Positions 1 to 14,819 are shown, counted from the first letter of the stretch. The stretch: 27,400 nt of DNA from a virus (IMGVR_UViG_3300014884_000057:1-27400), one strand, 5' to 3'. Notes: generated by a model from the letters alone, not told the origin. A program made the numbers and translations.

Positions 1-869
1 AGGCTGTCGCCGTCCGAGACCTGCGACAGCTCCTTCATGCGCTCGATGAGGGCTTCGCCCCAATACCGCGGGATGGCATCGGCGTCATACAGTAAGCGCT
101 TCGGCGCGCGCAGCGTCGGAATCGCGTAGACCTCGCCGGCCGTGACCGGCTTCGGGTAGAGGACGACGGACGGGAACGCGCGGCCGCTCTCTTCCGGCAG
201 CAGCACCTGCAGCGTCGACGGGCCCGCGACGGTGCGCAGCGTGACGGTGCCGCGGCTCGACGTGCCCTCGGTCGCCGGCGTCGTGCCGTCGGGATACGCC
301 TTCGAGAAGTGGAGGATCGGATCCCGCCAGGTGCCGATCGCCACGGCGGTCGTGCCGTTGAGGGTGACTTGCGTCTCGTCCCACTGGCTCGCGCTGTTCA
401 GGCCCTCGACGAGCACCCGGATATCGGTATCGTTGACGTTGTCGCTGACGACTTCGAGCGCCTGGCCCGCGGCCGACGGCTGCACGCTCACGCCGACCAT
501 GCCGGCGATGGCGGCGGCCTTCGGTGTCGCCGCCACTTCGAGTGTCGTGCCCTGCTCCGGGTAGTCCTGCTGGATCTGATCGAGCGACAGGATCGGGATC
601 CGCGCGCCGGTGGTGAGGTTGCTGATGTACTTCACCATCGGCGGCACGCGGCCGAAGTAGGTCGGCAACACATAGGTCCGCTGGCTGACGACGGTCGTGA
701 TCTGGACCGGGCTCGGCAGCCGGTGATCGTTCCACGGGTGATTGTTCCAGATCGACAGGTAGGCCCGCCGGGCGAGCAGCGCCGCGGCGTCCCGCTGATC
801 GGGGTCGCCGAGGGCGCCCTTCCACGTCAGATACATGTCGAGCAGCTCGCGGAACGAGAGTTGATCCAT
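1..869 (-). CDS. Putative head-tail adaptor protein (podovirus type), runs off the left edge
   Basis: Not in the ORF track because its stop is outside the window. My translation from ATG 869 reads MDQLSFRELLDMYL...IWNNHPW...QITTVVSQRTYVLPTYFGR...VVLYPKP...RAPKRLLYDADAIPRYWGEALIE. The T..SQ..Y.LP..F / LYP.P / P..L..D..IP....AL pattern resembles SU10-type adaptors. Confidence 0.6.
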   Translation of the reverse strand, partial: MDQLSFRELLDMYLTWKGALGDPDQRDAAALLARRAYLSIWNNHPWNDHRLPSPVQITTVVSQRTYVLPTYFGRVPPMVKYISNLTTGARIPILSLDQIQQDYPEQGTTLEVAATPKAAAIAGMVGVSVQPSAAGQALEVVSDNVNDTDIRVLVEGLNSASQWDETQVTLNGTTAVAIGTWRDPILHFSKAYPDGTTPATEGTSSRGTVTLRTVAGPSTLQVLLPEESGRAFPSVVLYPKPVTAGEVYAIPTLRAPKRLLYDADAIPRYWGEALIERMKELSQVSDGDS

Positions 870-873
870 GTGG

Positions 874-1284
874 TTACGGGTCCACCGCGAGGTAGGCGAC
901 GCCAATGCCGACGGTGGACCCGGCACCGGTCGTGACCGACAGGCCCTCGCCGGTCGCGGTCACGAAGTGTCCAATCGGCGAGAACCCATCGGCGCGGCCG
1001 CCGCGGCTGTTGCAGTCGAAGGTTTCCGAGATGGCGACGCCGGCGCCGGCGCCCTTCGAATTGAACGTCACGGCCGTGGCCGTGCCGCCGGCGTGCAAGC
1101 GAAACACGAGCACGAGGAGTTTCTTGCCGGCGACGGCCGCCACGAGCGCCGCATCCGTCGAGGCCGCCGCGACGTTGGCAAACGCGCGTTGCACGAGGAC
1201 CGGCGCGTTGCGATACGCGACCGTGTCGGAGACGGCCATCGCGGCGATCGCCGACCGGAGCGCGACGGGGGGCAGGGGGGCCAT
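874..1284 (-). CDS. Hypothetical virion-module protein (136 aa, Ala/Gly/Thr/Val-rich, beta-strand-like)
   Basis: ORF with GGAG RBS, tightly packed in the minus-strand operon. Confidence 0.7.
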   Translation of the reverse strand: MAPLPPVALRSAIAAMAVSDTVAYRNAPVLVQRAFANVAAASTDAALVAAVAGKKLLVLVFRLHAGGTATAVTFNSKGAGAGVAISETFDCNSRGGRADGFSPIGHFVTATGEGLSVTTGAGSTVGIGVAYLAVDP

Positions 1285-1287
1285 CGG

Positions 1288-1404
1288 TTACTCCCCCACG
1301 CCGAGCAGCAGCAAGTCACCGCCGCCGCCCACCGCGAACGCCTTGTCGGTGATGAGCGACGCCAGCCCGAGCGGCCCGCAGAAGCCGAAACGGGTGATCG
1401 TCAT
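1288..1404 (-). CDS. Small hypothetical protein (38 aa, MTITRFGFCG...GGGGDLLLLGVGE)
   Basis: Manual translation. ATGA overlap with the stop of the upstream gene, GAGG RBS, and it fills the gap exactly. Confidence 0.6.
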   Translation of the reverse strand: MTITRFGFCGPLGLASLITDKAFAVGGGGDLLLLGVGE

Positions 1405-1649
1405 GCGCGGTCCTCAGTCGGGCTCACCAGATCCCGGTTGCGGTGCTCGGCGAGCCGGCGTTCGAGCGCCTGGCGGCCCGGGCCTTTGACGTGCGGCAGG
1501 ATCTTGTCGACGATCGCGGCGTGCGCGACGGCGACCACGGCCTGACTCGTCGCCGTCAGCCGTCGATAGATCAGGGCGAGCGCCGCCACGGTGACGAGTT
1601 GCAGCACGAGCAGGGCGATGCCGAGATAGATCATCATCAGGTCCTTCAC
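1401..1649 (-). CDS. Small membrane protein (single N-terminal TM helix, basic tail)
   Basis: Hydrophobic stretch IYLGIALLVLQLVTVAALALIY followed by RR. GTGA overlap with the upstream gene. Confidence 0.7.
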   Translation of the reverse strand: MKDLMMIYLGIALLVLQLVTVAALALIYRRLTATSQAVVAVAHAAIVDKILPHVKGPGRQALERRLAEHRNRDLVSPTEDRA

Positions 1650-2755
1650 ACAATCAGGGCGGTATCGGTATTCGCCGGGGCCGCCGTCGATGCGGTCGTC
1701 GTGAGCGTCGTCGTCGCGCCCACGTAATCAGAAATCGCCACGGCCTGGAGCGTGAGCGCGCCGCTGGTGTAAATCAGCACACGCCCGTTATAGAAATCAT
1801 TCACGGCCGACGGCGCCGCGCCGTTCACCGAGGTCAGGGGCACGGCGGTCGTCGTCGCGCCGGCGGCGATGACGGCCCGGCCAATCGCGAGGGCATACGC
1901 TTGGAGCGCGGTCGCGAGCGCCGCCGTCAAGCGGCCTTCGACGTCGTCCACGAAATCGTCGATGAGCACCAGGGCCGCCGCCAGCGTGTCCAGTTGCGTA
2001 TCGAGGTCGGCGGCGGCCAGGCCCACGGCGGTGCGCATGTCCGCGGCGACGGTGCCGCCCGTGAGGGCGGTCAGCGTGCGCGCGGCCGTTGACCAGACCG
2101 CGTCGAGCGCATTCACGCCGAAGGTCGCGGCGACGATGACGCCGTTGACGATCGCGCCGACGCTCGCGTCCATGCGCCCGCCGACGAGCGCGGCCGGCAA
2201 CCGGGTTTGAATATCATCCGCGTCGGCGATCAGGGTGTTGACCTTCGTCACGACTTGCGCGTCGAGATCCAGCCCGCCTGTATCGCTGATCGGCAGGCCG
2301 CCCGCGGCATCCGCGGCCGCAGCGGGGAGCGCCGTGCCAGTAAGGCCGCGCGTCGCGCTCCAGGCACTTTCGATCAGCGCGTCATTGAGCCCCGCTGCCC
2401 GGAAGCCGATCGTCGGGCCGCGCCACGGCAAGATGCCCGTCGCGACGCCGGTGAACCAGCCGACGCCTTCCGTGTCGTTGTTGATCGAGGCGCCTGCGCT
2501 TGCGGGGATCTCGATCGTGTAGATCCCGGAGTCGCCTTGGTCGGTCCAGTCGTAGTCCCCGGCGGTCGTCGGCGTGACCGACGTCACGGTGTACGCGCCG
2601 GCCGGCGTCACAAAGTGCCACCGCAGGGCCATGCCGGCCGCGTTGTAGGCGACCGCGCCTTCAATCGACTTGAAGTCTGTGTCGTCGATGAGCGGGAGGA
2701 GATTGACAGGGACTTCCGCCAGCGCGACGTCCACGTCCATCCAGAGATCAGGCAT
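1646..2755 (-). CDS. Putative virion structural / fibre-like protein (369 aa)
   Basis: Ala/Thr/Gly/Asp-rich, with a central helical segment and a C-terminal beta domain (NDFYNGRVLIYTSG...ISDYVG). GAGG RBS. Located in the morphogenesis module. Confidence 0.6.
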   Translation of the reverse strand: MPDLWMDVDVALAEVPVNLLPLIDDTDFKSIEGAVAYNAAGMALRWHFVTPAGAYTVTSVTPTTAGDYDWTDQGDSGIYTIEIPASAGASINNDTEGVGWFTGVATGILPWRGPTIGFRAAGLNDALIESAWSATRGLTGTALPAAAADAAGGLPISDTGGLDLDAQVVTKVNTLIADADDIQTRLPAALVGGRMDASVGAIVNGVIVAATFGVNALDAVWSTAARTLTALTGGTVAADMRTAVGLAAADLDTQLDTLAAALVLIDDFVDDVEGRLTAALATALQAYALAIGRAVIAAGATTTAVPLTSVNGAAPSAVNDFYNGRVLIYTSGALTLQAVAISDYVGATTTLTTTASTAAPANTDTALIV

Positions 2756-2761
2756 ACATCC

Positions 2762-3406
2762 TCACATTTGCGCGTAGGCGTAGTAGGGTTTTCCGCCGCC
2801 ACCGCTCGCTTCGGTGAACGCCGCGAGCGAGTGATTCGCGCTAACCGAGTTCGTGGTGGTGTAATCCGCGTCCACCGTCTCGCCGCTCGTCAGCTTGTAG
2901 CGGTGATACTCGCGCTCGCCTGCCGTCATCGTGAACGCCGTGAAACTGTCGCCAGCCGTCGACCCCCCGTCATTCGAGGCATGGGCGCCACACGCCACCA
3001 TAAAACCCGCACTCGCCGTCACCGATCCGGCATTCTGTGCGGTCGTGGTGGTCGTGGTGTTCGTGCTGGTGTTGCCGTCTGTGATCGCGCCGGTCGGTGT
3101 GAAGGCGGCCGCAATGCCTTGGAAGACGCGATTGATCCCGCTATAGTCGATCGTGATGATCGGATTCCCGGAGGCGGCGTTGATGAAGCGGAAGATCGAC
3201 GCGCGCCCGCGCGTGCCGTCCGCCACCGTCACCAACGCCGTCCCCCACGATCCATTGATGTCGTCCGAGACGGTCGGCGCGGCGCTCCCGTCCCGTTCAC
3301 GCAGACACAACACCAGCGTATCGCCGGTGGCGACCCCCGTCAGTTGACACGTTGTCGAGGTGCCAAAGGACTGGTTGTAGCTGTTCTGCGTGTTGAGGGT
3401 CGTCAT
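2762..3406 (-). CDS. Putative virion structural protein (214 aa, Thr/Ser/Gly-rich beta protein)
   Basis: ORF directly abuts the upstream stop. Composition is typical of virion beta-sandwich proteins. No signal peptide. Confidence 0.7.
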   Translation of the reverse strand: MTTLNTQNSYNQSFGTSTTCQLTGVATGDTLVLCLRERDGSAAPTVSDDINGSWGTALVTVADGTRGRASIFRFINAASGNPIITIDYSGINRVFQGIAAAFTPTGAITDGNTSTNTTTTTTAQNAGSVTASAGFMVACGAHASNDGGSTAGDSFTAFTMTAGEREYHRYKLTSGETVDADYTTTNSVSANHSLAAFTEASGGGGKPYYAYAQM

Positions 3407-3850
3407 CTAGGGTGTCGTCACAATCTCCACGGTGCAGCCGTACCGCATCCGTGCGACCGTATCGATCTCCCCGCGAATCTGTTGCCCACGCAGGTAGATC
3501 AAATTGGTGGAGACGGACGACGCCGGGTTCGTCCCGAGTTCCGGGTCTTCGACATGCCCGCTGATCCACGAGCCCCCGACATACAACCGCCACACGCCCG
3601 CCGGGGCATCGAAGCGATACAAGCGATACCGAATCGTGTTCCCCGGCGCGTCGTAATCCGCCGTGTTGACGTCGAGCGTGATCCGCAGATCGCCGACGGC
3701 ATCCATCGGCACGGTGACACTGCCCGTCTGAAAGGTGCCCTGCCGCTGCTGCTGGCCAAGGGCGGCTACGACCACCACAGACTCCTGCGCGAAGGCGACG
3801 GACGACACGAACAGACACACGACGAACGCGAGCGCAAGGGTATAGCGCAT
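3407..3850 (-). CDS. Exported protein with Sec signal peptide (147 aa)
   Basis: AGGAG RBS before ATG 3850. MRYTLALAFVVCLFVSSVAFA|QES has clear n/h/c regions and an A-x-A site. Confidence 0.8.
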   Translation of the reverse strand: MRYTLALAFVVCLFVSSVAFAQESVVVVAALGQQQRQGTFQTGSVTVPMDAVGDLRITLDVNTADYDAPGNTIRYRLYRFDAPAGVWRLYVGGSWISGHVEDPELGTNPASSVSTNLIYLRGQQIRGEIDTVARMRYGCTVEIVTTP

Positions 3851-3999
3851 AGACACTCTCCTGAGATGTGCGGGAATGCACGCCCCATCCTACGTCGAAC
3901 ATTAACGGACGTCGTCACAAGCCCCCTTTGACCCTGGTGCGCGGTCGTGAGTGTGATCATGGAAAGCAACTCCTTACAAAGACAGCCACTGCATCAGCC

Positions 4000-4443
4000 T
4001 CACCCACCAACGCGGACGCCGACGGCAACGGCCGGTGGCGTCCCCCGCACAAAAGGGTTCGACGGATCGCTGGCCGACGCGGACACCGGCACGCCCCCGA
4101 CGATCACCTTCGCCGTCATCTTGCCGATGTATTGCCCGCCGAACGGCATGGCGAACAGCACGCCGCTCGTTGCGCCCGTATCGAGCACGCAGTCGCGAGA
4201 CGCGTTGGCCGGGTCCGTCCAGCGGATGAAGCGCGGATTCACCTGGACGCCGGAGGGCGGCGGCGTGGGCGCCTGATCACAGAGCGCGGCGGACTTCAGG
4301 AAGTCGAACGACGAAATCGGGGCGCCGTCCGGCGTCGTCGCGAAGTGCGCCGTGAACGTGTAGTCCGTCGGCAACGGTGTCTGCGCGACCGCGGACGCGG
4401 CCACGCACAGACACCCGAAGATCAGCAGCAGCACACGGATCAT
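4000..4443 (-). CDS. Exported protein with Sec signal peptide (147 aa, possibly Ig/FnIII-like)
   Basis: AGGAG RBS before ATG 4443, so the ORF-track start at 4710 is too early. Signal MIRVLLLIFGCLCVAASAVA|QTP. Two Cys in the mature part. Confidence 0.8.
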   Translation of the reverse strand: MIRVLLLIFGCLCVAASAVAQTPLPTDYTFTAHFATTPDGAPISSFDFLKSAALCDQAPTPPPSGVQVNPRFIRWTDPANASRDCVLDTGATSGVLFAMPFGGQYIGKMTAKVIVGGVPVSASASDPSNPFVRGTPPAVAVGVRVGG

Positions 4444-4469
4444 TCGAAGACTCCTGTTCACGGGGGCTA

Positions 4470-4889
4470 TCACCGGCCCACCCGCATGTTGTGAATGGCG
4501 GCCACGCCTTTCGCGCCGCCGCCGACCAGGCCGCCGATGGTGGCTACCTTGTCGAGTGTGGGGCTGCGCTTGGCGAGGCGGTCGAGCAGGAGCGCCAGCG
4601 CCGCGTTGATTGCCGCGTTCGTCATGGCGATCCCGCCGCGCCCCATGTCGCCGAAGATCGGATTTCCCTCGCGCGCCCGCCCGCTGGCCAGCGCGCGATC
4701 GGTCGTCCATATATCGGCGGCCGCCCCGCCGAGGAGCGCCGGCAGGCCGATCTTGCGGAACGTCGGCTTCCGCTCGGGCGGGGCCGGGTCCTGCTCGAAC
4801 GAGAGCGTGCTCAGCGGATCGGCCTCGGCGGCGAGGGCTTCCTCGATGAACGGCTGCAGGGCGGCGGGATCAAACCGCTGGCGCGGCAT
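4470..4889 (-). CDS. Membrane protein, DUF5658-like
   Basis: ADIWTT.RAL..G..REGNP motif flanked by hydrophobic Gly/Ala helices. Start at ATG 4889 chosen just after the upstream stop (uncertain). Confidence 0.55.
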   Translation of the reverse strand: MPRQRFDPAALQPFIEEALAAEADPLSTLSFEQDPAPPERKPTFRKIGLPALLGGAAADIWTTDRALASGRAREGNPIFGDMGRGGIAMTNAAINAALALLLDRLAKRSPTLDKVATIGGLVGGGAKGVAAIHNMRVGR

Positions 4890-4893
4890 CGCA

Positions 4894-5229
4894 TCATCCA
4901 GGAGGACGAGCCCCAGCAGGAGCTCCGGGAGAAGTGTTGCCACTCGGGACCGCGCCTTGGCCCGGCTGCGATTGCGGCGGTGCAGGACAGACGACGTTGA
5001 AGCGCTCGGCGGCGACCTTCGGGTTCGAGCAGAGGAGCTCACTCACGACGGCGCGCATCACCGTGAACTCGGTGTAGCGGTGCCACACCCACGCGCCGCC
5101 GATGGAGAGCACGGCCACGACGATGAGGAGCGCGAGCGTCCCGCCCGCACCCCACGCGAGCGCCTGGCGGCGCGTGAGCGTTGATCCCTGATCCCTGATC
5201 CCTGATGCGTCGGTTAACGGGCCGGTCAT
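4894..5229 (-). CDS. Membrane-anchored protein with twin-arginine-like motif (111 aa)
   Basis: TRRQAL precedes a long hydrophobic helix. Two Cys and a Pro/Gly tail follow. TAATG overlap with the upstream gene. Confidence 0.7.
   Translation of the reverse strand: MTGPLTDASGIRDQGSTLTRRQALAWGAGGTLALLIVVAVLSIGGAWVWHRYTEFTVMRAVVSELLCSNPKVAAERFNVVCPAPPQSQPGQGAVPSGNTSPGAPAGARPPG
5182..5206. repeat. Heptamer tandem repeat (TGATCCC)x3.5
   Basis: tgatccc tgatccc tgatccc tgat seen directly. Confidence 0.9.
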
Positions 5230-6509
5230 TACGGCACACCCCAGCAGTTGATCGAATAGATGTCCGTCGTCGCTGGAGCCGTGCCGTTGGTGACGACGGT
5301 GATCGTGGTGGTCGTGGTGACGACGGTCAGGGCCTGCTTGCCGACGACCATGCCGGCCTTGGCCATCGTGACGTTACAGATCGGGGCGGCGGCCCAGGTG
5401 CCGTTGAACGTGACGACCCATCCGGAGGCCGGGACGCCGCTCGAACCCATCGTCACGCGCATCGCGGTATCCGAACCGGCGACGGAGGGCGACGTGCCGC
5501 AGTTCGATGAACAGGTCGGCGCGACGGCTTGAGTGAAGCCGACCTGCGTGCCGCGTCCGGTCGCGCCACCGGCGGTGACGTAGAAGCGTGTCGTGCCGCC
5601 GGTTTGGCCTTCAATGAGGCGTTGTAGGCCAGAGCCAACCGCGGTCTCCGTGCGGTTGATGAACAGATCGGTGTTGGCGGCGGCGCCGGAGGGTTGGTTG
5701 TAAGTCGGGAGAATCGCGGTGTTATAGAAGGGCCCTGCCGTCGTGGCGATGTTCACAGACTCGCCTAAGGTCACGAAGGTCGTGTACGTGTTGTGATTAA
5801 GGACTGTTCCCGCCGCATTGTAGTAGCCGAGACGAATCGGCGACGCTGAGGTTTGCAACAGTCGCAGGCCGACGAAAATATTTCCTGCGCTACTCGCTTG
5901 CGCCCCGAACGTGGTGGCCCGCGCTGTGCCTGTGGCGGCTGTCCGAGAGCCGATCATCCACTCGTTCGCGGTCGTCTGCGCGTCAATCGAGAACGCCTCG
6001 AAGTTCGACCCGCTCGTAAATGTGTTCGACACATCAAACCGATTGGCAGACGTATTGAAACCTAGACGCAACCAGTTTGCCGCTTGCCGCACGATACTCG
6101 CGTCATTTGCGACTCCCCAATACAGCGCGCCAGCGTCTGTGGTCAGGTAGACGCCGCCACCAGAATCGAGCGCGAACGTCTGAGTGCCATTTATAGAAGC
6201 ACGAATCGTCGAGGACGCTCCCGTTCCGGTGAAATACCACCCAGTAGAAGGGTTCGCGGCCTGCGCGAGGCTCGGCGCCGCCGCCGAGCCATTGGGCGCG
6301 AGCAGTTGCCCCGAGAACGATCCGCCGCCGCTGAACGGGGCAGCGATCGGGATGACGCCCGATCCCGTCTGCTGCGCGACGAGGCTCGCCCCGCCGGCGC
6401 TCAGCACCAGCGCGACGAGCGCGCCGACGAGGAACTCAGAAGCGCGAGAACGGCAGGACGGCCACCGATTGCGCAGCCGCCGACGCAATTCCCCAAAGTA
6501 CATTCGCAT
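5229..6509 (-). CDS. Fibre/spike-like protein with N-terminal signal peptide (426 aa)
   Basis: Basic n-region, then FLVGALVALVLSAGGASLVA|QQ. Fibre-like GSAAAPSL motif and a Gly/Thr/Asn-rich beta body. C-terminal domain has 4 Cys (TCSSNCG, PICNV, INCWG). Confidence 0.7.
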   Translation of the reverse strand: MRMYFGELRRRLRNRWPSCRSRASEFLVGALVALVLSAGGASLVAQQTGSGVIPIAAPFSGGGSFSGQLLAPNGSAAAPSLAQAANPSTGWYFTGTGASSTIRASINGTQTFALDSGGGVYLTTDAGALYWGVANDASIVRQAANWLRLGFNTSANRFDVSNTFTSGSNFEAFSIDAQTTANEWMIGSRTAATGTARATTFGAQASSAGNIFVGLRLLQTSASPIRLGYYNAAGTVLNHNTYTTFVTLGESVNIATTAGPFYNTAILPTYNQPSGAAANTDLFINRTETAVGSGLQRLIEGQTGGTTRFYVTAGGATGRGTQVGFTQAVAPTCSSNCGTSPSVAGSDTAMRVTMGSSGVPASGWVVTFNGTWAAAPICNVTMAKAGMVVGKQALTVVTTTTTITVVTNGTAPATTDIYSINCWGVP

Positions 6510-6936
6510 TGCGGACCTCGAGACAGAGGCTTTCGTTGTCGGTCATCGGCCAGCCGGTCGCGGTCGTGACCGCCGACGAGACGCCGAGGTAGAGGGTTTG
6601 GCCGGGGACGAGCGCCTTCACGCACACGCCGCCGTTGACGTTGCCGCTCGACGTGAGCTGCACCGCCGCGACGCCGACCGTGACGCGATAGGGCGCGGTG
6701 ACTTGAATCGCCGCCCGATTCGGTTGCGCCAGGAGCGTCTCCGCGGCGAACGGGTTCGGGATCAGGCGCAGCTCGTCATACTCGCCGTCGCCGACGCGCG
6801 CATAATCGCCATGCCTCGACGTGCCGGCGAACTCAAACACGCCGATACGCGGCGCCGCGAGATCGCACACCGCCGACACGGCGAGCGCGAGGATCGCCAG
6901 CACGATCGGCACGAAGGGACTGCGGAGGCTCTTCAT
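6436..6936 (-). CDS. Exported or anchored beta-sandwich-like protein (166 aa)
   Basis: GGAG RBS before ATG 6936. N-terminus MKSLRSPFVPIVLAILALAVSA. C-terminal beta domain with two Cys. Confidence 0.75.
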   Translation of the reverse strand: MKSLRSPFVPIVLAILALAVSAVCDLAAPRIGVFEFAGTSRHGDYARVGDGEYDELRLIPNPFAAETLLAQPNRAAIQVTAPYRVTVGVAAVQLTSSGNVNGGVCVKALVPGQTLYLGVSSAVTTATGWPMTDNESLCLEVRNANVLWGIASAAAQSVAVLPFSRF

Positions 6937-6962
6937 CGGTGACTCCATGACCTGAAGGTGTT

Positions 6963-7003
6963 GGGTTCGAGCGCGGGGTTCCCACCGAACCGCGCTCGAA
7001 CCC
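6963..7003. terminator. Intergenic 14-bp perfect inverted repeat (terminator or RNA stability hairpin)
   Basis: GGGTTCGAGCGCGG (6963-6976) pairs with CCGCGCTCGAACCC (6990-7003). No U-tract. Confidence 0.5.
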
Positions 7004-7024
7004 GACAGGATGGCCCGATCCCGA

Positions 7025-7633
7025 TCAGCCGCCGAACGGCACGACAACGAGGCCCTTGCCCGTGGCCGCACTCGCGGCGGCCGCGTTGTTGTCGCCGGTC
7101 GTGATAATGGCCATCGTGGCGTTGGCGTCGACGGTCGCGGTAAAGCCGATCGACGACGCGGCCACGAGCGCCCCGTTGACGGCCGCCCAACAGAAGCCGC
7201 GCTGCGAGTCGGCGCCGACCTCGACGACGATCGCGTAAAACGCGAAGTCGGTTCCGTTGCCGGTGTTGTCGGTCAGCGTGCAGATCGCCGTGCCGCCGAT
7301 CTTGAGTTTGATGTCCTTGGCGTTCGCATTCGCCGCCAAGGTGCCAAACGCCGTGATCTGCATTCCGCGGCCGACCTTGAAGAGCATCTCGTCGTCGAGC
7401 GTCACGGAGTTGAGCGTGTTGTCGGTCGACTGGACCGAGGCGCCCACGACCGTGGTCGCATCGACGAGCGCGCCGGGCAGGATCTTCCCGCTCGTGGGAT
7501 GCGCCAGGCCGAGCGACATCAGGTTCTTGACGGCCGGCTCGTTGGCGATGGACTGCGCATAGGCCGGCGTCGCGAGGGCGAGGGCCGCGACGAACGCCGC
7601 GGCGATCGAGCAGGAGCGAAGGATTAGGGTCAT
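7025..7633 (-). CDS. Exported protein with Sec signal peptide (202 aa)
   Basis: AGGGAG RBS. Signal MTLILRSCSIAAAFVAALALATPAYA|QS. Two Cys in the mature part. Confidence 0.8.
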   Translation of the reverse strand: MTLILRSCSIAAAFVAALALATPAYAQSIANEPAVKNLMSLGLAHPTSGKILPGALVDATTVVGASVQSTDNTLNSVTLDDEMLFKVGRGMQITAFGTLAANANAKDIKLKIGGTAICTLTDNTGNGTDFAFYAIVVEVGADSQRGFCWAAVNGALVAASSIGFTATVDANATMAIITTGDNNAAAASAATGKGLVVVPFGG

Positions 7634-7696
7634 GGTCAGGATCTCCCTGTGATTACGAACTACGGTTACTGGTTGTCGGGCCCGAGGCCCTCGTTG

Positions 7697-8080
7697 TTAG
7701 GTCGTCACCGTGAAGGTGTGCCCGACCGAGATGCCGGCGACGACCCACTTGTAGGTGCTGTCCGCCGTGCGAATGCACTCCGCCTCGAGCACGGCGCCGA
7801 TCATTTCTCCGGCCGTCTGCGCCTTCACGGAGTTCGCCGCCAGGTCGTGCTTGGTGACGAGGTCGCCGGCGTTCGCGCCGGTGAAGCCGATGATCTGGTC
7901 CGCCAGGCCCTTGGCCTGGTAGGTCACGCCGAGATACTGCGGCCCGGGTGTCGGCAGCGTGAGCACCACTTCGCCGACCGCGCCGTAGTTCGTGAAGCGC
8001 GTGTCCGGCTGATCGCGGAACAGCGAGATCGAGTAGGCCGCGACCTTGTTGATGATGCGGCGCTTGAAGTTCGTCGACAT
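7697..8080 (-). CDS. Putative head decoration / minor structural protein (127 aa)
   Basis: GAGGGAG RBS, beta-rich, downstream of the capsid gene. Confidence 0.6.
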   Translation of the reverse strand: MSTNFKRRIINKVAAYSISLFRDQPDTRFTNYGAVGEVVLTLPTPGPQYLGVTYQAKGLADQIIGFTGANAGDLVTKHDLAANSVKAQTAGEMIGAVLEAECIRTADSTYKWVVAGISVGHTFTVTT

Positions 8081-8094
8081 GAGGATCTCCCTCG

Positions 8095-8583
8095 TTACTG
8101 AACTGCGTTAACTACGCCCGCGTTGCTGATGCGGGTGCCTTCGAGGCGGCTGATCGGATCGTGCGAATCGACCGCGATGTCCTGCAGGAGGCCGAGGCGG
8201 CGGCGGCGCCGCGACTGCTTCGCCCAGGCTTCCTCGTATTCGAGCTCGTCCGCCACTTGCATCCCGCTCTTGGCGAAGAGGTCGTCCCCTTCTTCCTGGA
8301 GCGCGGTGAGGATGTTGGCCGGGCGACACAACCACTGCCAATGCACGAGCGAGACGTGGATATACCCGTCGCGCGCCTGCACGTGCAGATCGCTGTGGTC
8401 GCCCAGACCCGCATTGACGGCCGGCCGCTGCCGGCATTTCCGTTCGAGCACGTAGAACGACCCGCCGCGTTCGACGCTCTTCCGCAAGCGGAGATCGGGG
8501 TCGAAGGCCTGCAAGATGCCTTCGACGTGCCGAAACTCCGGCTCAAGGCGCAGATGCGGGCGGACGCGCACGTGATCGGTCAT
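8095..8583 (-). CDS. Hypothetical phage protein (162 aa, MTDHVRVRP...)
   Basis: ATGA overlap with the upstream stop at 8580-8583. The ORF-track extension to 8997 overlaps another gene. Confidence 0.75.
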   Translation of the reverse strand: MTDHVRVRPHLRLEPEFRHVEGILQAFDPDLRLRKSVERGGSFYVLERKCRQRPAVNAGLGDHSDLHVQARDGYIHVSLVHWQWLCRPANILTALQEEGDDLFAKSGMQVADELEYEEAWAKQSRRRRRLGLLQDIAVDSHDPISRLEGTRISNAGVVNAVQ

Positions 8584-9287
8584 CGCTTCTTCGTGCCGCC
8601 CGGCTTCGGCTCTTGGGGCCGCGGGGCGCTGGTCTGCGGCGTGTTGGGATCGGGCACCCAGCCCGAGCCGATCGCCGCGGCCGATTCCTGCGACGCGAGG
8701 CTCTCGCCGGGATTGACCGGCGCGACCGCCGCGGCGCGCGTTTCGTCGGTGCCGCCGTAGACGCCCTGATCGGGCTTGCCGGAGACGCCGCCCATGACGC
8801 CGCCGCTCGGCGTCAGGCCGAGCCCGGGCAGGGACTTGAGGGCGTTCTGCGTGCCGATCACTTCGGCGCTGCGGCCGGCGGCCGTCGGCAGGAGATCGCG
8901 GTTGATGCCCTCGACCTTCTCGCCAAACGCCGCGAGTTGTTCCTCGGTGAACGGATCCCAGGTCTCCCGGGGGTCGTGACCGATGATCGTGATCCACGGC
9001 ACGTACTGCGGCGCGCTCGAATCCTGCGGATTCGGGTTGCGCGTGCCCGGCACGATGTTCCGGCGCTGCAGGTGTTTGGCGACCTGGAACTCGCAGCGGA
9101 ACTTCGCGTAGCCCGGCACGACGTAGGTCTGCGCATCGAACATGTCCATGATCGGATGGGGTCCGCGGTTGAGGCAGATCACCATCGACGTCGGCTTGAG
9201 TTCGGCGCTGTGCTGCGTCTCGGGCGTGAGATCTATCACGTCGGATTGATCGAAACCCCTCGGCAGCTCGTAACTGAGACCCTTCAT
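8580..9287 (-). CDS. Hypothetical protein directly downstream of the major capsid gene (235 aa)
   Basis: AGGAG RBS and GC-rich third codon positions. Confidence 0.8.
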   Translation of the reverse strand: MKGLSYELPRGFDQSDVIDLTPETQHSAELKPTSMVICLNRGPHPIMDMFDAQTYVVPGYAKFRCEFQVAKHLQRRNIVPGTRNPNPQDSSAPQYVPWITIIGHDPRETWDPFTEEQLAAFGEKVEGINRDLLPTAAGRSAEVIGTQNALKSLPGLGLTPSGGVMGGVSGKPDQGVYGGTDETRAAAVAPVNPGESLASQESAAAIGSGWVPDPNTPQTSAPRPQEPKPGGTKKR

Positions 9288-9312
9288 GTGTGCTCTCCTG
9301 CGACGCTGAGCA

Positions 9313-9340
9313 CGGGGCGGGTCGTCAGAGACCCGCCCCG
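9313..9340. terminator. GC-rich hairpin after the capsid gene
   Basis: CGGGGCGGGTC (9313-9323) pairs with GACCCGCCCCG (9330-9340). No U-tract. Confidence 0.5.
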
Positions 9341-9378
9341 CGTAACCAGACCGTCGCGACTCGTGTATCCGCCGGCGC

Positions 9379-10659
9379 TTAGGCCGCCTTCACCACGAGC
9401 TGATTGACGTCGATGCCCTCGGCGCGCGCGTTCACGTTCGGCCGCTGGCAGTGGAAGTTGTCCTGTATGAAGTAGAAGGCGGTGTACTCGTCGTAATCCG
9501 ACACCCACTTCAGGACCGAACCCTCTTCGTCCGCCCACTGGCCTTCGTTCTCCACGTAACGAATCCAGGACGACTTGTTGATGCCGAAGAGCATTCGGTA
9601 GGGCGCATCGCGATCGGTGAAGATCGGAATGTCGCCATACGTGATGACGCGGCCGCTCGGCTTCTTGGCCGCGGCCGTGCCGCCGTCGGGGCGCATCAGA
9701 TCGGCGCCCGAATAGCGGCGGTCGGTCTCGAGCAGGACCAGGTAGGCCCGCCGCACCGCGTGCTCGCACGCGAAGAGGTCGAACATCTTGCCGGTCTTGA
9801 TCGAGATGGCGTCGCACATCTGCTGGATGGCATCCAGCGAGAGCGCGCCGACGCCGGTCGTCACGTAGGAGTTGAGGATCGGATAGGTCGTCCGGCTCAG
9901 CCCGTGATACGTGCCGACGAAGGTGCCGTCGTCGATGCCCGCGAGGATGCCCTCGGGCTCCTGGTTGTAGGAGTGCTGCGTCGCCGACTGCGCGATGACG
10001 ATCTTCGCGTTGTCCGCGACGTCGACGGCATGGTCGACGGTGACGGAGGTCAGCGCCGCCGCGACCCCGGTGATGGTCGCCGTGTCGATGACGTTGTTGC
10101 CGGCATCGAGGAAGGCGACATACATGCCGCTCGTGGTGTCGCCGTCGAGGAACCGGCCGCCGCCGAGCGAGCCGGCGACGTTGCCGGGCGCGTCGACTTC
10201 GACCGTGGCGTCCGCGACCTGCGCGCCGTTGACCAGCGCGAGGATGCCGGAGCCGTAGCCCCAGACCACGCGGTTGCGGTGGAAGGCCATCGCTTCGATG
10301 AGCGCGTCCATTTCCGCGGGGATGACCTGTTTCCAGGAGCCCTTGGAATTACGCGACTGCGCGATGACGTTGCGTTCGAAGCCGACGCGCCCGTAGGTGT
10401 TGCGCATCGGGATCGAGAAGTCGGCGAAGACCGAGCGGCCGGCCTGGGGCAGGCGCGCGCGGTTGGCGATCGATCCGACCGACCGATTCCGGCCGATCAT
10501 GATGGGGACGACCTTCTGCCGGCCCACCCAGGAGTCGTCCTTCACTTCAGATTCCATCCACTGAAGCATCAGGTTTTCGTCGGTGAGCTGGTTGACGATC
10601 GCGGGCCCGTAGTCGTCTTTGAACAGCGGGTCCCACTGCGTGGTGTCTGAGCCGGGCAT
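9379..10659 (-). CDS. Major capsid protein (HK97 fold; 426 aa)
   Basis: Follows the portal and scaffold genes. GGAG RBS before ATG 10659. Motif pattern LFKDDYGP.I..QL, WGYGSG.LA, EPEGILA, YGDIPI..DRDAP and C.RPN..AR..GI near the C-terminus. Confidence 0.85.
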   Translation of the reverse strand: MPGSDTTQWDPLFKDDYGPAIVNQLTDENLMLQWMESEVKDDSWVGRQKVVPIMIGRNRSVGSIANRARLPQAGRSVFADFSIPMRNTYGRVGFERNVIAQSRNSKGSWKQVIPAEMDALIEAMAFHRNRVVWGYGSGILALVNGAQVADATVEVDAPGNVAGSLGGGRFLDGDTTSGMYVAFLDAGNNVIDTATITGVAAALTSVTVDHAVDVADNAKIVIAQSATQHSYNQEPEGILAGIDDGTFVGTYHGLSRTTYPILNSYVTTGVGALSLDAIQQMCDAISIKTGKMFDLFACEHAVRRAYLVLLETDRRYSGADLMRPDGGTAAAKKPSGRVITYGDIPIFTDRDAPYRMLFGINKSSWIRYVENEGQWADEEGSVLKWVSDYDEYTAFYFIQDNFHCQRPNVNARAEGIDVNQLVVKAA

Positions 10660-10681
10660 TGGTGCTACTCCGTCGCGCCGT

Positions 10682-11737
10682 TTAGCCGTTGCGAATGCGT
10701 CGGTGCACGTCCGCCAGGTGTTCACGCGTGCCGCGTGCTGGCTGGGTCGCGCCCCCGCCGCCCGCTTGATGCTTCGGGCGCTGTCCGTTGGTTGTGGCCA
10801 TGCGCTGTTGCTGCGCGGCTTGGACGATGCGAGAGGTCGTGGGATTGACGCCGAGATCCTTGAGGATCTCGCCGGATACCTTCACGGGATCGAGCTTGGC
10901 GCCGGCCTCTTTGTAGGCCGCCGCCATCAGGTTCCGATAGGCGCGCTGAATGCCGGGGTTCTGGATCTTCTTCGCACCGACGTTGATGGTGCTGACCCAT
11001 TCCTTCCGCAGCCCGGCTTCGTCTTTCTGCCGGAGTCCGCCCTCGAGCTGATCGATCCGCGCCAGCGCGGTCTTCAGGGACTTCGCGATCGTGCTATGCG
11101 ATCGCGAGAGGCTCATGAAGAACTTGCCGGGCGCCGTGTTGGTCTCCCAGAGCTTGGCGAACTCCTCGTCGGTGAGGTTGAACTCATCGGCGAGATCCTT
11201 CGCTTCGGCTTTGGTCATCCGATCGGCCCCACGACGGGGCTCGCGATCGTCGTCGTCTCCCCCGCTGCCCTGTACGAGCCGGAGCAGCTTCTCCACATCG
11301 CCGCCGCTGCGCGCCAAGAGCGCGTCAAAGCTGCGGACCTTCTGGATGACGTCGTCGGGATCGGTGATCCCTGCCTTCTTGAGCGCCTTCACGAGCGGCC
11401 AGGCTTTGCCGAAGCGTCGCTTCAGCTTGTTGTGCGACTGACTCAGCGCCTTGTGGCGCTCTTCGATCGGTCGCGCGTCGTCCTGGTCATCCTCGTCACG
11501 CCCGAAGAGCAATTCGTCTTCGTCGTCCTCGGTTCGCGATCCTTCGTGGCCTTCGGCGTCGCCGGCATCCCCGCCCGCGTCGCTCTCACCACCAGTCGCG
11601 TCGTCGCCACCGTCGCCGGCCTCGCCGGCATCGCCCGTGGCTTGGGCATCTGCGCCGCCGCCCGCTGCACCGGCGCCGTCGATGACTTGCATCATCTCGG
11701 GTGCTGGCGTACCAGCGAACGGATTGAACCTGCGCAT
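10682..11737 (-). CDS. Putative capsid scaffolding protein
   Basis: GGAGG RBS before ATG 11737. Acidic disordered N-terminus and coiled-coil segments. Lies between portal and capsid. Confidence 0.7.
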   Translation of the reverse strand: MRRFNPFAGTPAPEMMQVIDGAGAAGGGADAQATGDAGEAGDGGDDATGGESDAGGDAGDAEGHEGSRTEDDEDELLFGRDEDDQDDARPIEERHKALSQSHNKLKRRFGKAWPLVKALKKAGITDPDDVIQKVRSFDALLARSGGDVEKLLRLVQGSGGDDDDREPRRGADRMTKAEAKDLADEFNLTDEEFAKLWETNTAPGKFFMSLSRSHSTIAKSLKTALARIDQLEGGLRQKDEAGLRKEWVSTINVGAKKIQNPGIQRAYRNLMAAAYKEAGAKLDPVKVSGEILKDLGVNPTTSRIVQAAQQQRMATTNGQRPKHQAGGGGATQPARGTREHLADVHRRIRNG

Positions 11738-11776
11738 AGGTTCGTCCTCCGTCGAAATGGGTCCCAGACAGCGAAA

Positions 11777-11830
11777 AGGGCGGGACTTCAAGCGGCGCTA
11801 TGGTCGGCGCCGTCGATGAAGTCCCGCCCT
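11777..11830 (-). terminator. Long hairpin followed by a short U-run, upstream of the scaffold gene
   Basis: AGGGCGGGACTTCA / TGAAGTCCCGCCCT form a 14-bp perfect stem, with an inner CGGCGC/GCGCCG stem. The minus strand reads ...CCCTTTTCG. Confidence 0.55.
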
Positions 11831-11854
11831 GGAACTTGCTGGGCCCGTGTGAAC

Positions 11855-11919
11855 CTGACGACGTGCCGCGTGGGCAACGCGACCGCGCACGGGAGCAACC
11901 CCGTACGCGTTGCCGTCAG
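11855..11919 (-). ncRNA. Candidate three-way-junction RNA immediately 3' of the tRNA
   Basis: Minus-strand stems CTGACGGC/GTCGTCAG, CGCGTACGGG/CCCGTGCGCG and GTCGCGT/ACGCGGC (G-U allowed). Confidence 0.45.
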
Positions 11920-11922
11920 AAG

Positions 11923-11999
11923 TGGTTGCGGTGACTGGATTTGAACCAGTGACAATTCGGTTATGAGCCGAGCGCTCTACCAGGCTGAGCTACACCGCG
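11923..11999 (-). tRNA. tRNA with CAT anticodon (Met/fMet-like), CCA encoded
   Basis: CGCGGTG TA GCTC AGCCTGGTA GAGC G CTCGG CTCATAA CCGAA TTGTC ACTGG TTCAAAT CCAGT CACCGCA ACCA forms a 77-nt cloverleaf. Confidence 0.95.
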
Positions 12000-12039
12000 A
12001 CAATCTACATAGCGACCTCTAAAGATTTCGAGCTTCCAC

Positions 12040-12305
12040 GTCAGTCTGCACAGCAACGGGCATACCGCCCATCGTCTTTTTTGTGCGGTGAGGGCACCGG
12101 CCACACCAGCGCCGTGCGACGTGGGCTCCCAGACCGCGTGGACGACCACGCGACTTGCCGGCCCCTCACCGGCACAAACCCTGACAAACGAAGGTGGTGA
12201 CGTCCATGTCGCAGCGCGAGCCGGGCGACAATCGCCGCGCAGATGCTCTGAACGTGCCGGTGGAAGGTCTACACCGACGGACCGAACAACCATGTTCGTC
12301 ACCAC
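12040..12305 (-). ncRNA. Candidate multi-domain structured RNA 5' of the tRNA
   Basis: Closing stems GTGGTGACG/CGTCACCAC (12194-12305) and TTTGTG-CGGTGAGGG-GCCGGC/GCCGGT-CCCTCACCG-CACAAA (12080-12178) with internal hairpins, plus a hairpin at 12054-12074. Confidence 0.45.
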
Positions 12306-12314
12306 TCTTTTGCG

Positions 12315-14819
12315 CTACACCGGCGCGCCGCCCAGCGGGTCGGGCGGCGGCTCCCCGGGTTGAGGCAACGGCTGTTGCAGCAGGGCCTCGGTAATCTGAT
12401 CGATCGACGGGCCCGCCGCCATCGGCGGGGCGGGCGCCATCGGCGGCGCGTCGCTGTCGGCGCCGTCCGGCACGAGCACGCCGGCCTGGATGGCCTCATC
12501 GAGGGTGCCGCCCTGGCCCGCTTCGCCGGTATCGGGGGTCAACACGCGGGACTGAATCGCTTGGTCGAGCGTGCCGCCGCCGCCGGGCGCGGGCGCGGTG
12601 GGCGCGCCGCCGCCCTCGGGTCCGGCGGGCGCGGGTGCGCCGCCCGGGCCAGCCGGCAGCGCCGGCTGCGTCATAATTTGGAGATTGGCGACGTGCTGCA
12701 CCATCGCGCCGTAGACCGCCGGGTTCTGCTCGGCCAGGATTTCCGCCTCTTCGCTCTTCAGAAACGCCTGCTTCAAATACCGGTGGAGCGTGAGGTTGCT
12801 CGTGACCGGGTTGACGGGCCGGATCTGGTCTGGCGTCGTCGCCGCCTTCCAGCGTTCGAGCTCGCGCCCGACCTGTCGGCGGTCGACGTCCCAGGACGGT
12901 TTGAGATTCGCGAGGTTCATCTCGACGAGGAGCTTGCCTTGCAGCTCGGGATCCGTCGCCGGCGGCGGTAGGACGCCCAGCGCCAGCGCTTTTTCGAGTT
13001 TGAGTTGCTGCAGAACGGGGTTCTTCGGCCACGCGCTCGCGCGCGCGACGACGATATCGATCTGCCCGGTCAGGTCCGCGGCCGCGAACTGCTTGAGCTC
13101 CCACTGGCCGTTTTCGCCGCGGATGCGGCGGAAGCGCGGCGACCACGCGGACTGCCGCGCGATCGCGAGCAGCATGAACGACAGGTCCTTCTCGAAGTCG
13201 ATGAGCGCGCCGAGCGGCGAATGGAACGTCGCCATGCCGCGCTGTTCGAGGATCTCGACCTCGCCGAGCGTCGGATCGCCCTCGGGGCGCTCGCCTTGGA
13301 GCACGGAGTTGAGGCCGGAGACCTTCTCCATCTTCGCGTCGAGGTTGTCGAGGCGGGCAAAGAGCGCTTCGGGCGGGTTCTGGCCGCGCGATTCGGTGGG
13401 CTTCTGGCCGTCGATCGAGCGATAGCGGACGTTCTCGCCGGGGACGCCGGTGAGCTCGTCGAGGAGGGTGACGGTGTCGGGGATGTACCGCGTCGGCGCG
13501 GCGTCGTGCATGATGATCAGCTCGATCATCGCTTCCGTGAGGTTGCGGGACTGCTGGATCGGCACGAGATCATCGGCCGGCGGATGGCCAAAGGCGTTCT
13601 GGCCGTCGGTGTCCCACGTGCGGATGAGGAAGTTCTTCATCGGCCGCGGGCTGTCGGGGTTGCCGTCGGTGTAGGGTAGCGGACCGGCGTCGATCAGAGT
13701 GTTGGCGAGGTAGACACCGTAGCACCCCTCGGGGAGATTCACCTCATGGTCGACGATCGGGTCGTGCTGCAGGCGGTAGACGACGGGCCCGTCCTGGCCG
13801 ACCGAGCCGCCGCCGAGGCTGGCGCCGCCCGATTGCGGGCTCGAGAGCCGGCGCATCTCGTCGGCATAGGCGCGGGTCAGCGCGCCATCGGCCCAATTCG
13901 CCTTGTTGTTGACGAGATCGGCGAGCCCGGGGTATTTGTCGCCCCACATCCGGAGAATGTCGCTGGGCGTCATCCGGTTGTGCAGGAGGATCCACGGCAC
14001 GGCTTTGGCGTTCGGGTTGCGGGCCGACGACGGCAAGCTGAACTCGAACGAACTGAGGACCTCGGCGCAAATCTTCCCGATCGGCATCGGCGCGCCCTGC
14101 GCGACGCCGTCGACGGTGAAGGGCTCGAAGGCGTTTTCGGTGTCCTGGTTCCCACAGTGCGGGCAGCCGTCGGCGTCCTCGACCTCCATCGGCATCACCT
14201 GCGCGTTGCACTCCAAACAGGTGAACATCGCGACGTCCTCGGTGCCGTACTTCTCGTCGCTGTCGTAGTAGAGGACGTAGGCGGCCTTGTCGGTCTTGGT
14301 CGCGAGGGAGTTGAGCTGGTGCCGATGGCCTTCGCTGTCGTAGCCGCACTCCTCGCGCAGCACGGGGACGGCGTCCTCGGCGACGTCGGCGGTCGCCTTG
14401 TCCTCGTCGCTGTCGGTGCGCGGGCCGTAGACCTGGGCGGGCTCGGACTGGTCGAGGATGGACGTCAGGCCCCGGACCACGATCCGAAACATATTGGTGA
14501 CGGGGCGCGGCACCCAGGCCGGCAAGCCGCCCTGGTCGGGGTTCTCGGGCCGCGGGACGTAGCGATTGGTGCCGTTATCCCAGATGCACCAGTGATTGTC
14601 GCGACCGCCACGGTCGAACCGGAGATTGAGAATATCCTGGCGATCGCGCAACAGCCGCGCGGTGTTGTTCTTCGCGTCGGCGATGCACCGATCCATAAGG
14701 ATGCGGCCGTGCGCCTGATAGTCGATCTGGCGCGCGGGTGTGGTCGGTTCGGTTGTCGCGCCGGGTCCTGGGGACGCCGGCGCACGGCCTTCTACAGGCC
14801 GTTCAGCCGTCGGGTCCAT
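12315..14819 (-). CDS. Portal protein (large, P22/podovirus-like; 834 aa)
   Basis: Lies between TerL and scaffold. Portal-like motifs VTNMFR..V, LVPIQQ.RN and MEKVSGLN.V.QG. Pro/Gly-rich tail. Confidence 0.85.
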   Translation of the reverse strand: MDPTAERPVEGRAPASPGPGATTEPTTPARQIDYQAHGRILMDRCIADAKNNTARLLRDRQDILNLRFDRGGRDNHWCIWDNGTNRYVPRPENPDQGGLPAWVPRPVTNMFRIVVRGLTSILDQSEPAQVYGPRTDSDEDKATADVAEDAVPVLREECGYDSEGHRHQLNSLATKTDKAAYVLYYDSDEKYGTEDVAMFTCLECNAQVMPMEVEDADGCPHCGNQDTENAFEPFTVDGVAQGAPMPIGKICAEVLSSFEFSLPSSARNPNAKAVPWILLHNRMTPSDILRMWGDKYPGLADLVNNKANWADGALTRAYADEMRRLSSPQSGGASLGGGSVGQDGPVVYRLQHDPIVDHEVNLPEGCYGVYLANTLIDAGPLPYTDGNPDSPRPMKNFLIRTWDTDGQNAFGHPPADDLVPIQQSRNLTEAMIELIIMHDAAPTRYIPDTVTLLDELTGVPGENVRYRSIDGQKPTESRGQNPPEALFARLDNLDAKMEKVSGLNSVLQGERPEGDPTLGEVEILEQRGMATFHSPLGALIDFEKDLSFMLLAIARQSAWSPRFRRIRGENGQWELKQFAAADLTGQIDIVVARASAWPKNPVLQQLKLEKALALGVLPPPATDPELQGKLLVEMNLANLKPSWDVDRRQVGRELERWKAATTPDQIRPVNPVTSNLTLHRYLKQAFLKSEEAEILAEQNPAVYGAMVQHVANLQIMTQPALPAGPGGAPAPAGPEGGGAPTAPAPGGGGTLDQAIQSRVLTPDTGEAGQGGTLDEAIQAGVLVPDGADSDAPPMAPAPPMAAGPSIDQITEALLQQPLPQPGEPPPDPLGGAPV

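What the first reader, a model, noticed from the sequence alone, without database searches (positions are those of the whole stretch)
3407..7633. Cluster of signal-peptide-bearing, Cys-paired proteins inside the virion morphogenesis operon
Seen: between the capsid and adaptor genes, five genes start with Sec-type leaders: 7025-7633 (AYA|Q), 6436-6936 (site unclear), 5229-6509 (LVA|Q), 4000-4443 (AVA|Q) and 3407-3850 (AFA|Q). Four predicted mature domains carry even Cys counts (2, 2 in the C-terminal domain, 4, 2); the fifth has one Cys. Membrane proteins are interleaved (4894-5229, 4470-4889) and several junctions overlap or abut. Established: tailed-phage virions assemble in the cytoplasm, their proteins normally lack signal peptides, and disulfides form in the periplasm. 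Inference: this phage may export a set of fibre/decoration-like proteins. They could be added to the particle at or after lysis, build an envelope egress or attachment structure, or remodel the host surface. This is the best candidate here for an undescribed system.
Basis: partly seen in the sequence, partly recalled or inferred. Interest (0 to 1): 0.82.

Follow-up and report, generated by a model that had tools for sequence, protein, structure and literature searches.

The report
Phage appendages with switchable export signals
A podovirus, likely of soil Acidobacteria, encodes fibre- and decoration-like proteins with predicted bacterial export signals that related phages either carry or lack on the same gene, which suggests these outer parts fold outside the cytoplasm and would join the virus particle only when the cell bursts, a route I did not find described for tailed phages.

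Summary
Confirmed. All five genes have Sec-type leaders (home-made rule, chance rate 10 of 1338; no SignalP) and the stated Cys counts. Three (7025, 6436, 5229) are conserved slots of a podovirus lineage, likely infecting Acidobacteria. 7025 is an anchor helix plus a lectin/TNF-like fibre-tip domain. 6436 is a small jelly roll. 5229 is a fibre whose leader is overprinted 74 nt into 6436. Orthologues occur with and without leaders (7025: 26 and 13; 6436: 45 and 9), and the window's Cys pairs occur only in leader forms; a phylogenetic test of this link was not significant. In relatives the tail fibre has a leader in 8 of 8; portal, scaffold, adaptor and nozzle never do. In two cultured Cellulophaga phages, 7 of 22 proteins annotated as virion MS/MS hits carry such leaders. 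Best reading: appendages exported to the periplasm, oxidised, and docked at lysis (0.62). Against: no binding shown, a leaderless tailspike keeps the four-Cys tip, and capsid extensions pass the rule in 4 of 9. The scan found this theme before on other DNA (8 earlier notes); ten paper searches found no description.

The parts
7025..7633 (-). Appendage protein: 26-aa Sec-type leader (7556-7633), conserved anchor helix (about residues 29-44), lectin/TNF-like jelly-roll head (about 53-202), C118/C148
6436..6936 (-). Small single jelly-roll protein: leader and long linker, predicted cut at A70|Q71 (mature 6436-6726, 96 aa), C105/C138
6436..6519 (-). Overprint: GAGGT (6515-6519) and ATG (6509) of the fibre gene inside the end of 6436-6936, +1 frame, 74-nt overlap; kept in 7 of 8 relatives that have both genes
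5229..6509 (-). Fibre: 45-aa leader (6375-6509), conserved mature N-terminus (Q-x-x-G-x-G-V-x-P), variable shaft, four-Cys tip (about 5229-5555) shared with a tailspike and a baseplate-region protein of other phages
4894..5229 (-). Predicted single-pass membrane protein, coupled to the fibre gene by TAATG; no homologue found in the fetched loci
4470..4889 (-). Predicted membrane protein, weakly DUF5658-like; a distant relative lies in the same region of L041
4000..4443 (-). Leader (4384-4443) plus a predicted single Fn3/Ig-like domain, C55/C85; sporadic
3407..3850 (-). Leader (3788-3850) plus an unassigned beta-rich domain; one non-conserved Cys; four homologues known
7697..8080 (-). Leaderless conserved protein just upstream; its domain is fused in front of the 7025 head in P0125 and replaces that head in L004, L041 and L043
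9379..10659 (-). Podovirus major capsid protein (leaderless start in this window)
3..869 (-). Probable head-tail adaptor (by position before the nozzle in relatives; no profile hit), leaderless, cut by the window end

Best explanation
These genes likely encode outer virion appendages (a fibre, a fibre-tip spike and a small jelly-roll decoration) that are predicted to be exported by the host Sec pathway, to fold and form disulfides in the periplasm, and to dock on the cytoplasm-built particle when lysis opens the inner membrane. Shown here: tripartite leaders with A-x-A|Q sites; their absence from portal, scaffold, adaptor and nozzle; fibre-tip folds; an anchor-plus-swappable-head build; leader and leaderless orthologues at the same gene slot. 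Inferred: translocation and cutting by signal peptidase I, which would free a Gln-first N-terminal anchor (possibly cyclised to pyroglutamate); oxidation by the host's VKOR-type system; storage in the periplasm; binding to the head or tail at lysis. The leader is a per-gene switch of folding compartment, and Cys pairs tend to appear in exported forms. 4000 and 3407 are likely optional add-ons by the same route, with lower confidence.
For: (1) Selectivity in relatives: leaders on the post-nozzle tail fibre in 8 of 8, all with Q at +1; 0 of 9 portal, 0 of 9 scaffold, 0 of 9 adaptor, 0 of 8 nozzle, 0 of 8 small post-nozzle gene, 0 of 10 and 0 of 10 for the two genes after the capsid. The 5229 orthologue has a leader in 8 of 8. 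(2) Virion-type folds and fusions. The 7025 head matches domains of phage tailspike/appendage models (KP34 depolymerase TMq 0.58, phi15 tailspike, DLc1 appendage) and solved lectin/TNF-like heads (2a5z Z 11.0, rmsd 3.2, 139 aligned; 8okw Bdellovibrio fibre tip Z 8.2, rmsd 2.9, 112 aligned). It is the C-terminal module of proteins with tail-protein, tailspike or cement N-termini (P0236, P0231, P0215, P0158). The 5229 tip sits on a tailspike (L072) and on a protein between myophage baseplate wedge genes (L073). The 6436 core is a single jelly roll (PM2 spike P1 Z 9.2, rmsd 2.5, 85 aligned). (3) Anchor plus swappable head at the 7025 and 5229 slots. (4) Leaderless orthologues start where the predicted mature protein starts. 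(5) Cys pairs track leaders: 118/148 in 17 of 26 leader and 0 of 13 leaderless close homologues; among 150 distant representatives, 93/197 in 14 of 43 against 0 of 107, and 136/146 in 5 of 43 against 0 of 107; 6436 pair 105/138 in 13 of 45 against 0 of 9. (6) Precedent: GenBank notes of virion MS/MS cover 4 of 10 examined phi10:1 proteins and 3 of 12 examined phi18:3 proteins that pass the same rule, while capsid and tail-core proteins do not pass. (7) Both candidate host genomes encode VKOR, and 1 of 2 a glutaminyl cyclase.
Against: No cleavage, localisation or virion data exist for this phage, which is uncultured and seen only in part. The rule is home-made and has false positives: capsid proteins of 4 of 9 relatives pass through a 19-24-aa N-terminal extension, and one 7697 orthologue of 10 passes. 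The Cys-leader link is not significant once kinship is counted (independent pairs 2.4 against 0.0, median p 0.5; one usable pair), and one origin of the 7025 leader is not rejected (AU p 0.289). 9 of 26 leader forms of 7025 have no mature Cys; one leaderless distant protein has the 118/148 pair, and 20 of 107 leaderless ones have two or more Cys elsewhere in the domain. The four-Cys tip is intact on a leaderless tailspike (L072). Virion disulfides are reported in core proteins of Milano and crAss001 (passages), so disulfides need not mean export. Fold matches are generic jelly rolls at middling Z. The Cellulophaga notes could reflect co-purified proteins, those phages are unrelated, and the source paper was not held. 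4000, 3407 and the membrane genes are absent from all fetched relatives except one weak match.
Confidence: 0.62

Rival explanations
1. Host-envelope cargo: fibre-derived domains are exported to mask receptors, block superinfection or act as adhesins on the infected or lysogenic cell, and never join the particle.
For: 4000, 3407, 4470 and 4894 are sporadic and interleaved with membrane proteins. Bacteria use fibre-like proteins with TNF-like tips on their own surface (MAT family, passages of PMC10769870). Porphyromonas prophage proteins with Q-rule leaders were read as outer-membrane modifiers (passages of PMC10367356).
Against: The fibre at the canonical post-nozzle slot has a leader in 8 of 8 relatives. 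Leader and leaderless orthologues alternate at one slot of the late operon. No minus-strand sigma-70-like promoter in 1-12500. GC3 of 0.76-0.92 is like that of the core late genes (0.79-0.94), unlike the replication/methylase genes at 0.58-0.63. MS/MS virion notes in Cellulophaga phages.
Confidence: 0.16
2. The leaders are membrane tethers or propeptides acting on the cytoplasmic side: appendages assemble at the inner membrane, are trimmed by a phage or host protease, and oxidise only after lysis.
For: Capsid proteins of 6 of 10 relatives have a likely translated 19-24-aa extension with its own ribosome-binding motif; 4 of 9 pass the rule. Porphyromonas phage capsid 'signal peptides' were ascribed to prohead-protease cleavage. 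The 6436 A|Q site lies up to 100 residues from the start, far for signal peptidase I. Leaderless L072 keeps four Cys.
Against: Four of the five leaders, and all 8 tail-fibre leaders, are short-range n/h/c signals ending A-x-A|Q, the signal peptidase I pattern, whose active site faces the periplasm (established knowledge). Three different Cys pairs on one fold are almost confined to leader forms.
Confidence: 0.14
3. The exported and membrane proteins build an envelope egress or vesicle-packaging structure through which particles leave.
For: Two predicted membrane proteins are translationally coupled within the cluster.
Against: They are absent from most relatives, which keep the leader-bearing fibres. 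No secretin, pore or channel family was hit in Pfam, PHROGs or NCBIfam. The folds found are adhesion-type heads.
Confidence: 0.04

Closest known systems
Podovirus tail fibres, tailspikes and head appendages (P22/T7/epsilon15 type, recalled; crAss001 head fibres gp21/gp29 and tail fibre gp22, passages of PMC10172136)
   Same: Late-operon position; short N-terminal anchor with a variable C-terminal head; jelly-roll, lectin-like or Ig-like tips; occasional disulfides.
   Different: Those are made in the cytoplasm and dock through residue 1 onward (gp21 1-38, gp22 1-26; 'signal peptide' has 0 hits in that paper's main text). Here the anchor lies behind a cleavable Sec-type leader.
Cellulophaga phage phi10:1 gp091-094 and phi18:3 gp085-087 (GenBank KC821618, KC821620)
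   Same: Consecutive late genes with Sec-type leaders, mostly Q at +1, noted as virion proteins by MS/MS; core proteins leaderless.
   Different: Bacteroidota hosts, unrelated sequences, few Cys; the record notes do not mention export. No homology to the five window genes was found.
Filamentous phage pIII/pVIII (Inoviridae; recalled, no call)
   Same: Virion proteins with cleaved leaders; a receptor-binding protein oxidised in the periplasm.
   Different: Inoviruses assemble in the membrane during extrusion. This phage has terminase, portal and a podovirus capsid and builds its particle in the cytoplasm.
Bdellovibrio MAT fibres (PMC10769870, passages) and prophage Eib adhesins (recalled)
   Same: Fibre-like proteins outside the cytoplasm; TNF-like tip (8okw, Z 8.2).
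   Different: They are cell-surface adhesins. No S74 chaperone or autotransporter anchor was hit in the window proteins, which sit in a morphogenesis operon.
Microcystis phage Mae-Yong1326-1 UUJ74534 (cultured)
   Same: Stand-alone homologue of the 7025 head (30.5% identity, E 3e-5) in a cluster of fibre-like genes.
   Different: Leaderless, no Cys in the domain, different gene order.

Membership tests
Tailed-phage outer appendages (fibre, spike, decoration) | Gene in the late morphogenesis operon near capsid, adaptor and nozzle | tested here: met
Tailed-phage outer appendages (fibre, spike, decoration) | Conserved N-terminal anchor with exchangeable C-terminal head | tested here: met
   7025 and 5229 slots; not shown for 4000 or 3407
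Tailed-phage outer appendages (fibre, spike, decoration) | Head domain shared with known fibres or spikes | tested here: met
   7025 and 5229; 6436 only a generic jelly roll; 4000 Fn3/Ig-like by embedding only
Tailed-phage outer appendages (fibre, spike, decoration) | Trimer formation | not tested
   No homo-oligomer job was run
Tailed-phage outer appendages (fibre, spike, decoration) | Physical presence in the virion | not testable with these tools
   Uncultured phage; only unrelated Cellulophaga records carry MS/MS notes
Canonical cytoplasm-folded podovirus fibres (P22/T7 type) | No export leader; anchor starts at residue 1 | tested here: not met
   so not filed in this class, although it likely works like one
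Sec / signal peptidase I substrates | Basic n-region, hydrophobic h-region, A-x-A site, no lipobox | tested here: met
   Home-made rule, chance rate 10 of 1338; for 6436 the conserved A|Q site is unusually distant
Sec / signal peptidase I substrates | Trained-predictor call and observed translocation and cleavage | not testable with these tools
   No SignalP; no experiment
Periplasmic disulfide proteins | Cys pair bonded in the fold and dependent on export | tested here: inconclusive
Morons / lysogenic-conversion genes | Own promoter and terminator, atypical composition, sporadic presence | tested here: not met
   For 7025, 6436 and 5229: conserved slots, operon-like GC3, no minus-strand promoter-like site. 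4000 and 3407 are sporadic, so open for them
Trimeric autotransporter (Eib) or MAT adhesins | YadA-type membrane anchor or S74 chaperone domain | tested here: not met
   No such Pfam hit at E 0.1
Inovirus coat proteins | Membrane extrusion without terminase or portal | tested here: not met
   Terminase, portal and podovirus capsid present
Bacteroidetes Q-rule substrates | Gln at +1 in a Bacteroidetes host | tested here: inconclusive
   Q at +1 in 4 of 5, and at A70|Q71 in the fifth; but the closest relatives lie in Vicinamibacterales and Acidobacteriota bins, and the rule was described as Bacteroidetes-specific (abstract start of PMC5837995)

The most novel reading that the evidence does not exclude
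Tailed phages have a second, periplasmic assembly line that can be switched gene by gene. Gain of a Sec leader (here even overprinted on the neighbouring gene) moves an appendage into the periplasm, new disulfides follow, and the particle becomes complete and infectious only at lysis. The leader-bearing coiled-coil gene after the tail fibre and the small membrane proteins act as periplasmic chaperone and staging platform.
Probability: 0.35. Interest if true: 0.92.

Novelty: new variant of a known kind. Interest (0 to 1): 0.74.

Why it matters
Tailed-phage particles are taken to be finished in the cytoplasm before lysis. If receptor-binding gear is made in the periplasm and added at lysis, morphogenesis, lysis timing and host Sec and disulfide systems become linked. 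Annotators would also stop reading 'signal peptide' as 'not a virion protein'. This lineage gives natural pairs of the same gene with and without a leader, and the cultured Cellulophaga phages allow a direct test on existing laboratory systems.

Tried and rejected
Complex prediction of 7697 x3 with mature 7025 x3: 'no answer', score 0.00; it says nothing either way. Pfam, PHROGs and NCBIfam gave no named family for the five genes; only unnamed phrog_30212 for 6436. PDB sequence searches with four alignments found nothing significant. Cultured-phage tblastn: one hit for 7025; none for 6436, 5229, 7697 or 1646; only weak hits for a relative's tail-fibre N-terminus. No viral-contig relative of 4000. 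No known cement protein stood out for 6436: Pam1 chain 7eel_H ranked 26th; this does not exclude one. One search used wrong alignment columns and was redone. Tests for repeated leader gain and for leader-Cys co-evolution were not significant. A late start for 5229 at residue 35 (Atlas record) was rejected: the upstream ATG with a ribosome-binding motif is kept in 7 of 8 relatives, and L043 has an ordinary leader on the same mature end. A 6436-5229 frameshift fusion was judged unlikely for the same reasons. Lipoprotein reading rejected (no lipobox). 4894-5229 is not detectably related to the L044 membrane gene. The Cellulophaga source paper was not held. Rows dropped before counts: P0039, P0041, P0042, P0043 from the 43-row 7025 set (truncated or distant), P0044-45 not aligned; duplicate loci of one contig counted once (L002=L006=L039, L007=L014=L042, L008=L044); L001/L005/L038/L075 are identical to the window and not counted. 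Of 30 loci only 6 close ones were gene-called, and of 3329 representatives only the best 150 were examined.

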